DNA from: Escherichia phage ECML-10
Reading direction: 5' to 3' (one strand)
Sequence record: OL631479.1
DNA: 64,000 nucleotides
Shown here: piece after piece, positions 30,545 through 35,236 of the stretch
How the letters are laid out: each line of letters opens with the position of its first letter
How positions within the stretch are numbered: the stretch's first letter is position 1
Notes under the pieces: generated by a model
The model's database searches: none
What the model was told of the DNA's origin: nothing
What the model saw: only the letters and a program-made list of their open reading frames with translations
Position numbers and translations under genes: made by a program

Positions 30545-30850
30545 ATGGCTAAATCTAAAGTTGAACTGTTCACCTCTCTTCCTTCTGACACTGCAGAGCG
30601 TGATCGCCTTCGCAAAACAATCGAAGAACTGGTGGAACTCCAACTTCAGATTAAAGATCTGAAAGATGCCATCAAGGATATCATTCTTGTTGAGAAGCAG
30701 GATCATCTGTATTCTCCTAAATTCATCAAATCTCTGGTGGCTACCGAGTTCGATATTCGATATGAGGCTGAAAAACGTCGAGCTAAAATCGAAGAAGAGG
30801 TTGAGCACATGTCCGAGGCAGACATTCTGTTCAAACGCTCTGTAGAATAA
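30545..30850 (+). CDS. hypothetical coiled-coil protein
   Basis: AAGGAGA RBS; heptad-like charged sequence. Confidence 0.45.
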   Translation: MAKSKVELFTSLPSDTAERDRLRKTIEELVELQLQIKDLKDAIKDIILVEKQDHLYSPKFIKSLVATEFDIRYEAEKRRAKIEEEVEHMSEADILFKRSVE

Positions 30851-32605: not shown

Positions 32606-34030
32606 TAAGTTCTTCTCTTTTCTTTTACCGAGTAATTCGGGTTTTCTGTTCTCTTCGGTTTGAAGGGGTATGGAGATACACCTGAGTGAACAGGGTGAAC
32701 AACCGAACATTTGGCTATGGCATTAGCATGGCGAAGCGGACGGGTGACGAAAGAGGGGCCGGAGGACACCAGTCACTGCCATATGATATATGGGTGATAA
32801 CCTGAAGAGTCTGAATAAGTGTTTAAGTACCAGTCAGAGGAAAAGGTGAATGGTAGCCGAAGGGGGAGGGGGTTTCTTGTATCTTTAATTTGTATATTAT
32901 GTATACATTCGTAAACCAATCTCATCTGAATCTGTTTACCACACAAAGTGGATAGAGACAAATATTACCTATTAAACTTGAATTATTTATAGAAAATACT
33001 ACAACACTACTTAAGTATTTGATTTTACACACAAATCCTGCAGATATTCACCCCCCATATTTAACATACTTGTAACATATTCCATACTCTACCTGACCGA
33101 TCAACTCACCCAACTACATCCTCCATATTTCCCCTGTCTGTACTACCCCTGCCCAGCCGGGAGTCCCGTCATATCTGGCTTTCCAGCAAATATCACACCC
33201 ACAAATATCATTGCCTGAAGAGGGTTTCATCCCATAATACATGCCTTACCTGAAGAGCGCTTCATATACCCCGTAAATTTTTTAATTGACACCCTCCCCG
33301 CCGCCGGAGGGGGTTGGCTTTTCCCACACAGACCCGAAGAGCCAGCCAGAAATATCTGAACAGGTCCAGCTATGCCACGATTTTGACCTGACCTACAGGA
33401 GTGCTTCCCTGTCAGGAGCCGGTAGCGACTGGAGTGCTGCCAGGCGGACGAAATGGGAATACTTCTCATTCTTATAATAATTCTCAAATATCGAGGCAGT
33501 GAGGCAAATTAATAGGTGAGGCCGTTCACACAGTGGCACAACATTTGCAACCTATCTTGTGTGGGGGAATGAGAATACCTATCATTGTGAGAATAGTTAT
33601 CATTACGGGCAATTTAACATAATACCCATTATGCGCACCACTGGCGATCCATACAGGGATTGATAACATGAGTTACTGTTTATGCATATAACAATTATAT
33701 TTCTTACTATTTGTGTGGGATATAGTTAGCAGCCAATAGATTAGATATTGACCTGTAGACTTCTGACCGTCCAGACGTCTAAACGCCCACACAACAAGGC
33801 TTATACATACATCGCTGAATGTAAACAGGGCCGCAAAAATGCTACCATACCAGATTGTAAATTTTTCATACAGCACTTGACAAAGAGGAGAAAAACTTGT
33901 CTGACACTTTAGACACAATAGTGACATAATGGTGACACACTGGGCATACTCAACACACTGGATACAATAACAGTTGTTACTATTGCATGCTTCACTGTTC
34001 ACGTATAGATTGTTTACACAGAGATGATAA

Positions 34031-34311
34031 GCCATGCCATTCGTTTGCATGACAATAATTAACTTGTTTACAATCTTTCACTGGCTATGCCAGGTGACCT
34101 TTGGTCACCCCTTCGGGTGTTTCTATGACATAATATAAAAGCAGGGCAACTATTAGAAGATCTATAGTTGCCTTGCTTGTTATGTCACGATTAACTAAAT
34201 ACAAGGCAACTATGATCTGATTAATAGTTTGCAGACAAACTATCACGGGGGTGATGGTTACTGCTTTTATATTATGTCGCGACTCCGTCGCGCCATGCCA
34301 TTCGTTTGCAT
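34031..34311. repeat. composite palindrome/iteron locus bounded by 20-bp direct repeats
   Basis: direct repeats GCCATGCCATTCGTTTGCAT at 34031 and 34292; perfect 18-bp inverted repeat GACATAATATAAAAGCAG (34127) / CTGCTTTTATATTATGTC (34261); GGCAACTAT / ATAGTTGCC palindrome at 34145-34172 with more copies at 34205 and 34310; GGTGACC..GGTCACC at 34093. Confidence 0.7.
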
Positions 34312-34924
34312 AGTTGCCTTATTGTTACGAATAAAACAATTGCATTGTTAATGATTTCTTATCTTTCTCTTAGTCATCTAATGATTCCAGTCAGTATAGT
34401 AATGTACAGTAAACATTAGACGACTAAAGATTTCTCTGTTTATTATAACTCACCGTTATAATTTCGAGCTGTTTACGAAAAATGTTGACATCCTAGCCGA
34501 TTTATGTTATGCAGTTTACACGAATAATTATTTTATGCAGGTATTGACTATTCCGTTATTCTATGGTTGGAATAAATACTTAGCAGGCTATAGACTGGTG
34601 AGCGTACGTAAATTCTGAGATCTGGCGGCTATAGTTATACTCGATTTTTCACGTAGAACACGCTTTTGTGGTTATGTAAGTGCATGAATTATAAGAATTT
34701 TTATTTGTTGACAAGATATTGAAGATATGCATCAGGTTAAAATTTATGCAATAGCGGCATTACGTGCAATTTTGGAAGGAAAAGCGTGTAAAAATGGCCC
34801 TGCTACCACACAATGAAAGGTTATGCAATAGCTATTTTACATGTATATTTGTACAGTGTGTGGGATTGATGGCTCGTCAATTATTCCACTTGCCAGGTAG
34901 GGCCGTTTGTGGTAGGAAAAGAGA

Positions 34925-34951
34925 AGACAAAAAGAAAGGGGCTTTAAGCCC
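34925..34951 (-). terminator. intrinsic terminator for the leftward gene block
   Basis: minus-strand GGGGC-uuaaa-GCCCC followed by UUUCUUUUU. Confidence 0.65.
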
Positions 34952-34972
34952 CTGACCGTTCATCTTGTTGTA

Positions 34973-35236
34973 TTATTTGTTGCTCATCCAGTTTTCCCAA
35001 GCTGCCTGATAATCTGCCTCACTACGGCGGATCTCTTCTTGTTCTTCAAGTCGGATCTCTTCTTCCAGGTACCCCAAGATGTCAGCCTTTTTGGTCTGGC
35101 GTAGCATCCAGTCATCTTTTTTGCGGGTAAAGATCTTATAAGCTTTCTCGCAAACCTCTTTTTTGCTACCTTTCTGGACTTCCAGAACACGATAAGCCAT
35201 ATATTGAACTAGTTTGAGCTGGTCAAGACGTTTCAT
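34973..35236 (-). CDS. hypothetical protein
   Basis: AAAGAGGAAAAA RBS; 87 aa. Confidence 0.5.
   Translation of the reverse strand: MKRLDQLKLVQYMAYRVLEVQKGSKKEVCEKAYKIFTRKKDDWMLRQTKKADILGYLEEEIRLEEQEEIRRSEADYQAAWENWMSNK

What the first reader, a model, noticed from the sequence alone, without database searches (positions are those of the whole stretch)
34031..34311. Highly symmetric palindrome/iteron locus bounded by 20-bp direct repeats
Two 20-bp direct repeats (GCCATGCCATTCGTTTGCAT) flank a perfect 18-bp inverted repeat (GACATAATATAAAAGCAG / CTGCTTTTATATTATGTC). Between the arms lie a perfect GGCAACTAT-N10-ATAGTTGCC palindrome and further GGCAACTAT/ATAGTTGCC copies; GGTGACC..GGTCACC and GTCGCGAC palindromes sit nearby. 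This layout suits an origin of replication, a packaging or partition site, or a miniature inverted-repeat element at the convergence point of the two transcription blocks.
Basis: seen in the sequence. Interest (0 to 1): 0.7.

Follow-up and report, generated by a model that had tools for sequence, protein, structure and literature searches.

The report
Conserved palindromic element beside phage terminal repeat
The repeats are real and form one copy of a structured, non-coding DNA element that a whole subfamily of rV5-like phages keeps a few hundred bases inside the left end of their linear genome, probably as a signal for copying or packaging the genome ends, although its function has never been tested.

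Summary
The window is a Vequintavirus (rV5-like coliphage). The apparent "convergence point" is really the two ends of the linear genome joined by assembly: the 459-bp direct terminal repeat (DTR) determined for phages Gotham and EdH4 maps to window 33443-33901. The finding therefore lies about 130-410 bp inside the left genome end.

The 18-bp inverted repeat is the closing stem of an element I found at the same place in 11 lineages of 8 Vequintavirinae groups. The arm sequences differ between lineages but co-vary: 156 of 162 arm cells are Watson-Crick paired, and 15 of 18 positions show compensatory changes. Spacers of 33-213 nt hold lineage-specific hairpins that also co-vary. A GC-rich flank ending in CGCGCC and a short direct repeat follow the right arm. 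The GGCAACTAT sites are the Vequintavirus-specific interior.

It is not a mobile element, not coding, not a known RNA family, and not a DnaA/iteron-type origin. My best guess (about 0.4) is a cis-acting DNA signal for concatemer processing and packaging at the terminal repeat. Rivals are a structured RNA, a replication-priming site and a terminator/insulator. Strand specificity and function remain unproven, and I found no published description.

The parts
33443..33901 (.). Direct terminal repeat (459 bp), present once in this circularly joined assembly. The left end of the virion DNA is at 33443 and the right end at 33901.
   Evidence: Gotham's annotated repeat_region 1-459 / 136567-137025 maps here at 435/459 identity. 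The EdH4 record starts at 33443 and ends at 33901, with an exact 459-bp redundancy. The bov11CS3 record also starts at 33443. Sources: PMC7471380, PMC6563267.
33902..34030 (.). Hypervariable zone immediately after the DTR boundary. It holds arrays of short repeats: TGACAC/TGACAT at about 10-11 bp period, then TGTTTACA/TGTTCACG units.
   Evidence: Alignment of 19 Vequintavirus loci. Copy number and sequence differ even between close relatives, while the flanks are conserved.
34031..34050 (+). Left copy of the 20-bp direct repeat GCCATGCCATTCGTTTGCAT.
   Evidence: Present in 18 of 19 relatives and absent in V18. A C>A variant at position 7 occurs in this copy only (3 phages) or in both copies (2 phages).
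34051..34123 (.). Variable linker: (G/T)AACAAT / ACAAGTT-type short repeats, plus optional hairpins GGTGACC-TTT-GGTCACC (34093-34109) and CACCC-CTTC-GGGTG (34106-34119, followed by TTTCT; terminator-like on the + strand).
   Evidence: The hairpin block is absent in pangalan, Gotham, FFH2, B9-1, 10C2 and others.
34127..34144 (.). Left arm of the closing inverted repeat (GACATAATATAAAAGCAG).
   Evidence: Perfect 18/18 pairing with 34261-34278. Homologous, co-varying arms occur in 10 other lineages.
34145..34172 (.). Palindromic unit 1: GGCAACTAT-N10-ATAGTTGCC. With its flanks it forms a 15-bp hairpin (34139-34178). GATC lies in the spacer at 34159-62.
   Evidence: The 9-mers are invariant and the spacer varies among 19 relatives. 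Murica annotates a - strand terminator here.
34205..34232 (.). Palindromic unit 2: GGCAACTAT-N10-ATAGTTTGC (second half degenerate). GATC at 34214-17. It pairs with unit 1 in the nested fold.
   Evidence: (D3, I14).
34235..34262 (.). Degenerate unit 3 / hairpin AACTATCAC-GGGG-GTGATGGTT (34238-34259).
34261..34278 (.). Right arm of the closing inverted repeat (CTGCTTTTATATTATGTC), preceded by the conserved TTAC.
34279..34294 (+). Conserved asymmetric flank: GC hairpin GCGAC-TCC-GTCGC (34279-91) overlapping CGCGCC (34289-94).
   Evidence: The same flank follows the right arm in all lineages. Examples: A73 GCTCCCTACGGTCGCGCCAC; KPP-1/PVP-SE1 GCTCGCTACGCTCGCGCCAC; CR3 GCGCC-TAC-GGCGC + GCC.
34292..34311 (+). 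Right copy of the 20-bp direct repeat. It starts inside the CGCGCC motif.
   Evidence: In other genera the 15-18 nt after CGCGCC(AC) is likewise repeated upstream: KPP-1 CCACGAT(A/T)ACGCGAACGA, A73 CCATACTCTGGCAAT.
34310..34318 (-). Fourth exact copy of the 9-mer (ATAGTTGCC on the + strand), outside the inverted repeat.
34335..34349 (.). Small hairpin AACAAT-TGC-ATTGTT in the conserved right flank.
   Evidence: Among the 19 relatives it varies as AACAAT/ATTGTT, AATAAT/ATTATT and AATAAT/ATTGTT, that is, a compensatory change plus a T.G intermediate.

Best explanation
The locus is the Vequintavirus version of an ancient non-coding element that the whole subfamily Vequintavirinae keeps about 200-400 bp inside the left direct terminal repeat of its linear genome.

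**Anatomy.** A 17-21 bp perfect inverted repeat closes a 33-213 nt interior made of lineage-specific hairpins. In this genus the interior consists of three GGCAACTAT-N10-ATAGTTGCC-type palindromes. A conserved GC-rich flank ending in CGCGCC follows the right arm, together with a 15-20 nt sequence that is repeated once more upstream.

**Proposed function.** I propose it is a cis-acting DNA signal of the genome end. When replication has produced concatemers that carry one terminal repeat between genomes, the palindrome marks the left-end side of the junction. It would act either extruded as a hairpin or cruciform, or bound symmetrically by a phage protein. Its role would be in terminase recognition, or in the nicking and fold-back synthesis that duplicates the repeat before packaging.

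**Shown:** position next to the terminal repeat; conservation; base-pair covariation; absence of coding potential.

**Inferred:** any role in packaging or end duplication; DNA rather than RNA as the active form; the identity of the binding partner.
For: **Position**
- DTR boundaries determined experimentally by two groups for Gotham and EdH4 (PMC7471380, PMC6563267) map to 33443-33901, and the left arm starts 226 bp later.
- In KPP-1 the reported DTR (PMC9862379) ends about 312 bp before the homologous arm.
- Many GenBank records of Vequintavirus, Mydovirus and Seunavirus begin or end within about 0.1-1.2 kb of the element.

**Conservation**
- The core 34124-34330 is nearly invariant in 19 relatives, while the sequence between it and the DTR is hypervariable.
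- The element occurs in Vequintavirus, Septuagintavirus A73, Mydovirus, Seunavirus, Certrevirus, Avunavirus, TH18 and Henunavirus.

**Pairing under selection**
- 156/162 arm cells are Watson-Crick across 9 lineages, and 15/18 positions show two or more pair types.
- Slid registers give 31-72 paired cells. Partner permutation gives a mean of 112, with 0 of 5000 reaching 156.
- The stem ends at the same position in all lineages.
- Inner helices co-vary too: 12 pairs with double-sided changes over four helices. Insertions fall in loops.

**Pointers to the DNA level**
- There is no G.T among the 156 paired outer-stem cells.
- Both strands have equal z-scores.
- No conserved sigma-70 promoter lies upstream.
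- Transcripts from both sides meet terminators before reaching the zone: 34953-34937 on the - strand and 32628-32640 on the + strand.

**Precedent**
- A hairpin intermediate at the T7 concatemer junction has been reported (cited in PMC4281155).
- T5 has a conserved repeat- and palindrome-rich untranslated zone at its terminal-repeat boundary (bioRxiv 10.1101/866236).
Against: - There is no experimental link between this element and packaging or end formation in any phage.
- The DTR itself carries other conserved blocks, such as 33602-33639 and the boundary motifs, which could be the real terminase signals.
- Multi-helix covariation is the classic signature of a structured RNA. Several wobble pairs read as G.T on the + strand: an invariant T42.G179 in stem B, which is C-G in Henunavirus.
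- Cruciform extrusion needs supercoiling, which linear concatemers may lack.
- One report infers headful packaging for a Vequintavirus from PhageTerm (PMC13211470), which conflicts with fixed DTR ends.
- DTR positions in PVP-SE1, CR3, A73, Av-05, TH18 and Henunavirus are inferred by homology only.
Confidence: 0.4

Rival explanations
1. It is a gene for a structured non-coding RNA of about 150-270 nt. An 18-bp stem closes a multi-helix fold. The RNA would be transcribed on the + strand and act in trans, for example in regulation, anti-defence or, most speculatively, packaging.
For: - Compensatory changes occur in four separate helices, and insertions are confined to loops.
- There are wobble pairs as read on the + strand, and the + strand has lower fold energy in 10/10 lineages.
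- T.G corresponds to C-G in Henunavirus stem B.
- A T.G intermediate occurs in hairpin 34335-49.
- In Mydovirus/Seunavirus and TH18/Av-05 a hairpin plus T-run follows the CGCGCC flank on the + strand.
Against: - The + strand advantage disappears when each strand is compared with its own shuffles.
- None of the 156 paired outer-stem cells is G.U.
- No conserved sigma-70 promoter lies upstream. In Vequintavirus the upstream sequence is hypervariable and often contains a + strand terminator-like hairpin just before the left arm.
- No T-run follows the element in the window.
- No Rfam family matches.
- No expression data were found.
Confidence: 0.2
2. It is a replication origin or priming site. 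A fold-back structure near the left end would be where the phage's T7 gp4-like primase-helicase or polymerase starts synthesis.
For: - It lies in the largest non-coding zone of the genome, with an AT-rich stretch (67-70% AT) just to its right.
- No origin is known for these phages; the skew analysis in PMC3606486 was inconclusive.
- rV5 encodes a T7-type primase-helicase (PMC3606486).
- In 10 of 11 lineages the arms end in GTGTC, TGGTC or ATGTC. From memory, the first two are preferred T7 primase sites. This is a lead only.
- Also from memory, T7 has secondary origins beside its terminal repeat.
Against: - The 9-mers alternate in orientation rather than forming direct iterons.
- No DnaA box or IHF site lies in the locus, and GATC is not enriched.
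- The Henunavirus arms end in GGTGGC, not GTC.
- The cumulative GC-skew turn here coincides with the switch in gene strand (PMC3606486).
- No initiator gene lies adjacent.
Confidence: 0.2
3. It is a bidirectional transcription stop, or insulator, that keeps read-through from either gene block from running across the genome ends.
For: - In the window, hairpin 34238-59 followed by the T-rich right arm scores as a + strand terminator.
- On the - strand, hairpin 34139-78 is followed by the T-rich complement of the left arm. Murica and Alma annotate a terminator there.
- The rV5 paper expected bidirectional terminators between genes 163 and 164 and did not find them (PMC3606486).
Against: - Good terminators already end both gene blocks well before the element.
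- The hairpin-plus-T-run geometry is not kept in A73, CR3 or KPP-1.
- Termination does not explain selection for pairing between arms 33-213 nt apart, or the conserved CGCGCC flank and direct repeat.
Confidence: 0.12
4. It is a miniature inverted-repeat transposable element bounded by a 20-bp target-site duplication.
For: Terminal-inverted-repeat-like arms and a flanking 20-bp direct repeat.
Against: - The direct repeats do not abut the arms; they lie 76 bp and 13 bp away.
- The element is single-copy in 64 kb.
- It is present at the same site in all relatives, with no empty site.
- Orthologous elements occupy the same genomic position in eight genus-level groups, with vertical-looking divergence.
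- A 20-bp duplication would be unusually long (my own knowledge).
Confidence: 0.02

Closest known systems
Phage T7 concatemer-junction region (terminal repeat flanked by short-repeat arrays, replication promoters, and the hairpin end reported by Chung, Nardone and Hinkle 1990)
   Same: - A short direct terminal repeat and T7-type replication proteins.
- Non-coding repeat arrays directly abutting the repeat, comparable to the TGACAC and TGTTTACA arrays at 33902-34030.
- A fold-back structure beside the junction, proposed to help duplicate the repeat (cited in PMC4281155). Details of the T7 arrays and origins are from my own memory.
   Different: - No sequence similarity.
- The T7 signals depend on T7 RNA polymerase promoters, which these phages lack.
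- Here the palindrome is long, perfect and multi-branched, lies on the left-end side, and has no demonstrated hairpin intermediate.
Phage T5 injection-stop-signal region (Repeat Region 3 at the inner boundary of the left terminal repeat)
   Same: A large untranslated zone at the boundary between the terminal repeat and unique sequence. It is packed with nested direct repeats, inverted repeats with spacers, and palindromes. It is conserved across the group while neighbouring genes vary, and its function is still unresolved (bioRxiv 10.1101/866236).
   Different: - T5's repeat is about 10 kb, carries pre-early genes, and T5 injects in two steps. Here the repeat is 459 bp and gene-free, so a first-step transfer would deliver no genes.
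- The T5 zone has ordered DnaA boxes; there are none here.
Lambda cosB (terminase small-subunit binding sites R3-I1-R2-R1 next to cosN)
   Same: A cluster of short repeated sites in both orientations, located within about 200 bp inside the left genome end (my own knowledge). This is the kind of layout that the GGCAACTAT sites resemble.
   Different: - Lambda has cohesive ends, not terminal repeats.
- cosB has an IHF site, and none was found here.
- cosB has no closing long palindrome and no base-pair covariation.
- No small terminase subunit or binding data are known for these phages.
phi29 packaging RNA (pRNA) gene near the left genome end
   Same: A structured nucleic acid of about 170 nt encoded close to the left end of a linear phage genome (my own knowledge).
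   Different: - phi29 has protein-primed ends.
- Its pRNA has a known promoter and a defined three-way-junction fold.
- There is no evidence of transcription here, no sequence or Rfam similarity, and the outer stem behaves as a strict DNA palindrome.

Membership tests
Miniature inverted-repeat transposable element | Target-site duplication directly abutting the terminal inverted repeats | tested here: not met
   The left direct repeat ends 76 bp before the left arm, and the right direct repeat starts 13 bp after the right arm.
Miniature inverted-repeat transposable element | Multiple copies and presence/absence polymorphism between related genomes | tested here: not met
   The arms and direct repeat are unique in 64 kb. 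The element is present at the same site in 19 of 19 relatives and at the orthologous site in 8 genus-level groups.
Iteron/DnaA-type replication origin | Three or more directly repeated iterons in one orientation at regular spacing | tested here: not met
   The GGCAACTAT copies alternate in orientation as 9-N10-9 palindromes.
Iteron/DnaA-type replication origin | DnaA boxes and/or IHF site with an adjacent AT-rich unwinding region | tested here: not met
   No TTWTNCACA or WATCAANNNNTTR in 34031-34330. AT is 55-63% in the element and 67-70% only to its right.
Iteron/DnaA-type replication origin | Initiation of DNA synthesis at the site | not testable with these tools
   Needs marker-frequency or 2D-gel mapping.
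Intrinsic (bidirectional) transcription terminator | GC-rich hairpin immediately followed by a T-run on each strand, conserved among relatives | tested here: inconclusive
   Terminator-like on both strands in the window (Murica annotation). The geometry is not kept in A73, CR3 or KPP-1.
Known structured RNA families (Rfam 15) | Match to a curated covariance model | tested here: not met
   Only sub-threshold chance hits in the window zone and in four other lineages.
Structured non-coding RNA gene (generic) | Base-pair covariation in several helices | tested here: met
   Outer stem: 15 of 18 positions compensatory. Twelve double-sided pairs across four helices.
Structured non-coding RNA gene (generic) | Strand-specific signal (G.U pairs, better fold on one strand beyond composition) | tested here: inconclusive
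   The + strand is more stable in 10 of 10 lineages, but z-scores against shuffles are equal for both strands. No G.U in the outer stem.
Structured non-coding RNA gene (generic) | Conserved promoter and terminator; detectable transcript | tested here: inconclusive
   No conserved sigma-70 promoter. A hairpin plus T-run lies downstream in some genera only. No expression data.
Packaging / end-processing signal of terminal-repeat phages (T7 concatemer junction, T5 repeat region, cosB-like) | Location within a few hundred bp of the genome terminus or terminal-repeat boundary | tested here: met
   226 bp from the DTR boundary in the window. 200-404 bp in Gotham, EdH4, GAP31, KPP-1, Mydo and PVP-SE1.
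Packaging / end-processing signal of terminal-repeat phages (T7 concatemer junction, T5 repeat region, cosB-like) | Conservation of a non-coding cis element across the phage group | tested here: met
Packaging / end-processing signal of terminal-repeat phages (T7 concatemer junction, T5 repeat region, cosB-like) | Terminase binding, or requirement for end formation and packaging | not testable with these tools
   Needs mutants, gel shifts and end mapping.

The most novel reading that the evidence does not exclude
The element is a dedicated fold-back device that solves the terminal-repeat duplication problem in a large group of myoviruses that lack a phage RNA polymerase. Either a DNA hairpin or cruciform is cut and used to prime synthesis across the 459-bp repeat, or a structured RNA made from it works as a packaging cofactor comparable to the phi29 pRNA. 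Either reading would be a mechanism not described for any myovirus.
Probability: 0.12. Interest if true: 0.85.

Novelty: new variant of a known kind. Interest (0 to 1): 0.55.

Why it matters
**An open question made testable.** How phages with short direct terminal repeats recognise the concatemer junction and regenerate a second copy of the repeat remains unsettled even for T7. It is essentially unstudied in myoviruses. A compact, single-copy element with clear base-pair covariation, sitting next to the repeat in a whole subfamily, gives a concrete and mutable target for that question.

**Practical value.**
- The subfamily includes therapy and biocontrol phages such as rV5, PVP-SE1 and KPP-1.
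- The element is a landmark for orienting Vequintavirinae genome records, many of which are deposited circularly permuted with this zone labelled only "non-coding".
- Genome engineers working on these phages should leave it intact.

If it instead proves to be an RNA gene, it would be a new phage RNA family.

Tried and rejected
- **Mobile element.** Rejected: single copy, no empty sites, and the direct repeats do not abut the arms.
- **125-aa ORF 33673..34050 (- strand), whose ATG lies in the left direct repeat.** Rejected as coding, because it crosses the hypervariable indel zone.
- **DnaA/IHF/Chi/Dam-site origin signals.** None in the locus, and GATC is not enriched.
- **Fur boxes.** Hairpin C in KPP-1 (AATGATAAGGATTATCATT) looks like a Fur box, but in relatives it co-varies to AATGCGA/TCGCATT. 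It is therefore a helix, not a conserved Fur site.
- **+ strand specificity.** Suggested by fold energies but not upheld against composition-matched shuffles.
- **T7-type primase site (GTC) at the arm ends.** Fits 10 lineages but not Henunavirus. Kept only as a weak lead.
- **Contigs seeming to end inside the element (L155, L159).** The truncation came from stored-data limits, not contig ends.
- **Scan of viral contigs with TGTCGC-N7-9-TCGCGCCA.** Gave only chance matches, so it was a wasted scan.
- **Using the 101-aa conserved DNA-binding protein as a positional anchor.** Failed, because it lies 36 kb from the DTR in KPP-1.
- **MAFFT alignment of the arms (A1).** It shifted CR3 by one column, so I counted pairs on an ungapped, end-anchored alignment instead.
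- **Covariation within Vequintavirus.** There is too little variation for any test.

Full report
**1.

- The 20-bp direct repeat at 34031-50 and 34292-311.
- The perfect 18-bp inverted repeat at 34127-44 / 34261-78.
- GGCAACTAT-N10-ATAGTTGCC at 34145-72.
- Further exact copies of the 9-mer at 34205 (+) and 34310 (-).
- GGTGACC-TTT-GGTCACC at 34093-109.
- GTCGCGAC at 34276-83.

All four exact copies of the 9-mer in the 64-kb window fall within 174 bp. About 0.5 would be expected in the whole window by simple arithmetic. The arms and the 20-bp repeat occur nowhere else in the window.

The core folds far better than shuffles, with z = -12 as DNA and -10.7 as RNA. The fold also shows two more degenerate 9-N10-9 units and a nested long palindrome.

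**2. Genomic context: these are the genome ends**

The window is a Vequintavirus (rV5-like coliphage), 90-96% identical to more than 100 records. The locus lies in a gene-free zone of about 2.3 kb. The rV5 genome paper marked this zone "non-coding" and did not explain it, and it treated the genome as circularly permuted (PMC3606486).

Later work found fixed ends with a short terminal repeat: 459 bp in Gotham (PMC7471380) and 458 bp reported for EdH4 and HdK5 (PMC6563267).
- Gotham's annotated repeat maps to window 33443-33901 at 435/459 identity.
- The EdH4 record, from an independent laboratory, starts at 33443 and ends at 33901, with an exact 459-bp redundancy.
- The bov11CS3 record starts at the same base.

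The window is therefore an assembly in which the two ends are joined through one copy of the repeat. The "convergent" gene blocks run toward the two physical ends. Both blocks meet good terminators before the zone, at 32628-40 (+) and 34953-37 (-). The finding starts 130 bp, and its inverted repeat 226 bp, inside the left-end repeat.

One dissenting report infers headful packaging for a Vequintavirus from PhageTerm (PMC13211470).

**3. Variation among close relatives**

I aligned 19 Vequintavirus loci.
- Sequence becomes hypervariable exactly at the repeat boundary (...AAAACTTGTC|TGACA). There are arrays of TGACAC-type and TGTTTACA-type short repeats that differ in number between close relatives.
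- Both copies of the 20-bp direct repeat are present in 18 of 19 phages.
- The linker 34051-34123, including the GGTGACC hairpin, comes and goes.
- The block 34124-34330 is nearly invariant. Within it the 9-mers never change while their 10-bp spacers do. Two phages carry a 33-bp insertion at the apex of the palindrome.
- There is no empty site, and the ORF that starts in the left repeat crosses the indel zone.

**4. The element is conserved across the subfamily, with co-varying arms**

KPP-1 (Mydovirus) has a reported DTR at 116,316-116,829 (PMC9862379). It has the same gene layout and a perfect 21-bp inverted repeat about 312 bp inside the repeat, with no nucleotide similarity to the window there.

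The same design is present in the following lineages:
- A73 (Septuagintavirus)
- PVP-SE1, 4MG and GAP31 (Seunavirus)
- Mydo (Mydovirus)
- CR3 (Certrevirus)
- Av-05 (Avunavirus)
- TH18 (unclassified)
- Erwinia phage pEp_SNUABM_01 (Henunavirus)
- Several metagenome contigs

The shared design is:
- Arms of 17-21 bp, mostly beginning GACA(C/T)(A/T)AT.
- Spacers of 33-213 nt.
- TTAC before the right arm.
- After the right arm, a GC-rich flank ending in CGCGCC(A/C)C. This is a small hairpin in the window (GCGAC-TCC-GTCGC) and in CR3 (GCGCC-TAC-GGCGC).
- A 15-20 nt sequence right after that flank which is repeated once upstream.

In the Mydovirus/Seunavirus set the DTR-end motif (TTGACA...TTGTGT) lies 235-404 bp upstream of the left arm. 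Many records of these genera also begin or end within about 1 kb of the element.

**5. Pairing is under selection**

I counted pairs on an end-anchored, ungapped alignment of nine lineages.
- 156 of 162 arm cells are Watson-Crick.
- 15 of 18 positions show two or more pair types.
- Slid registers give 31-72 paired cells.
- Permuting partners gives a mean of 112 (sd 8), and 0 of 5000 permutations reach 156.
- Position 18 is unpaired in all nine lineages, so the stem has a fixed end.
- No paired cell is G.T.

For twelve Mydovirus/Seunavirus elements, RNAalifold finds 64 pairs. Twelve of them have double-sided changes, spread over the outer stem, hairpin A, hairpin C and a small inner hairpin. 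Large insertions in Mydo and L162 fall in loops. Stem B is invariant within that set, including one T.G, which is C-G in Henunavirus.

**6. DNA or RNA, and which strand?**

The + strand folds more stably in 10 of 10 lineages. When each strand is compared with its own dinucleotide shuffles, the z-scores are the same. The asymmetry is therefore mainly G+T composition, and I do not claim strand specificity.

- No Rfam family matches.
- I found no conserved sigma-70 promoter upstream.
- Some genera have a hairpin plus T-run downstream, but the window does not.
- The strict Watson-Crick outer stem leans toward a DNA-level palindrome.
- The multi-helix covariation leans toward a folded single strand, either RNA or ssDNA.

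This remains open.

**7. What it is not**

- Not a mobile element (see sections 3 and 4).
- Not a classical origin: the repeats alternate in orientation, there is no DnaA box, IHF site or Chi, and GATC is not enriched.
- Not simply a terminator pair. That reading works in the window (Murica's annotation), but the geometry is not conserved, and it cannot explain long-range arm pairing or the conserved flank.

**8. Most likely function**

The only firm functional clue is position. The element is a single-copy, strongly constrained cis element beside the terminal repeat of phages that must recognise a concatemer junction and regenerate a second repeat copy.

I therefore commit, at about 0.4, to a DNA signal for concatemer processing or packaging. 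It would act as a palindrome that is either extruded or bound symmetrically. Within that model, the genus-specific interior sites (GGCAACTAT here, CAC(G/A)ATAAC in KPP-1) are either helices or protein contacts.

Precedents:
- The hairpin intermediate at the T7 junction (cited in PMC4281155).
- The conserved palindrome-rich untranslated zone at the T5 repeat boundary (bioRxiv 10.1101/866236).
- Lambda cosB (from my own knowledge).

Rivals are a structured RNA (0.2), an origin or priming site (0.2), a terminator/insulator (0.12) and a mobile element (0.02).

**9. Novelty**

I found no description of this element in the searchable literature. It belongs to a known kind of thing, namely repeat-rich cis elements at phage genome ends. 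Its anatomy is distinctive, and the covariation evidence is unusually clear for a phage non-coding element. I rate it a new variant of a known kind, with interest 0.55.

Noticed in passing
window 33443-33901: The window contains the collapsed 459-bp direct terminal repeat, so the deposited or assembled sequence is circularly permuted relative to the virion DNA. The repeat ends are conserved across genera: left G(G/A)CGGAC, right CTTGACAA(A/G)GAG...TTGT.
   Followed up: yes
window 33602-33639: A block of about 37 bp inside the terminal repeat (ATTACGGGCAATTTAACATAATACCCATTATGCGCACC) is the only stretch of the whole zone that BLAST still aligns to KPP-1 and A73. It may be the actual terminase recognition site.
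   Followed up: partly
window 33566-33610: Tandem 18-bp repeat TGAGAATACCTATCATT / TGAGAATAGTTATCATT, annotated only as 'repeat_region' in phages navn and pangalan. It resembles the E. coli Fur box by my hand alignment (about 13 of 19 positions). KPP-1 has AATGAGAATCATTC twice in its terminal repeat.
   Followed up: partly
window 33902-34030: Arrays of TGACAC/TGACAT (about 10-11 bp period) and TGTTTACA/TGTTCACG units start at the first base after the terminal repeat. Their copy number varies between otherwise near-identical phages. The TGACAY unit repeats the outer end of the inverted-repeat arm (GACAT/GACAC).
   Followed up: partly
window about 34440-34973: The window lacks a gene of about 420 bp (139 aa; 'contains Rel homology domain' in Murica) that most relatives carry between the element and the 87-aa gene at 34973-35236. 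This accounts for the roughly 550-bp length difference in BLAST.
   Followed up: partly
window 34335-34349: The small hairpin AACAAT-TGC-ATTGTT in the conserved right flank shows a compensatory C-G to T-A change plus a T.G intermediate among the 19 Vequintavirus sequences.
   Followed up: partly
GenBank MG0656xx records: About 18 records named 'Campylobacter phage' (marked UNVERIFIED, host C. jejuni) are 91-95% identical to E. coli vequintaviruses across this zone. They are probably mislabelled or contaminant coliphages.
   Followed up: no
L020 3198-3232 and 3590-3625 (KPP-1), and the whole Mydovirus/Seunavirus set: The motif pair TTGACA-N12-15-(C/T)ATGCTCAA occurs about 150 nt upstream of the left arm and again about 35 nt after CGCGCCAC. 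Its inverse, TTGAGCAT, sits about 30 nt past the DTR end. The spacing is too short for a sigma-70 promoter, and it resembles a T4 MotA box only loosely.
   Followed up: partly
window, whole: GATC is frequent across the window, with 352 sites in 64 kb against about 250 expected. It is rarer in the gene-free end zone, with 5 sites in 2.28 kb.
   Followed up: no
window 30545-30847 (+): A 101-aa protein is conserved across Vequintavirinae and annotated variously as transcriptional regulator, double-stranded DNA-binding protein, or (wrongly) RIIA. It lies 2.6 kb from the DTR here but 36 kb from it in KPP-1.
   Followed up: partly
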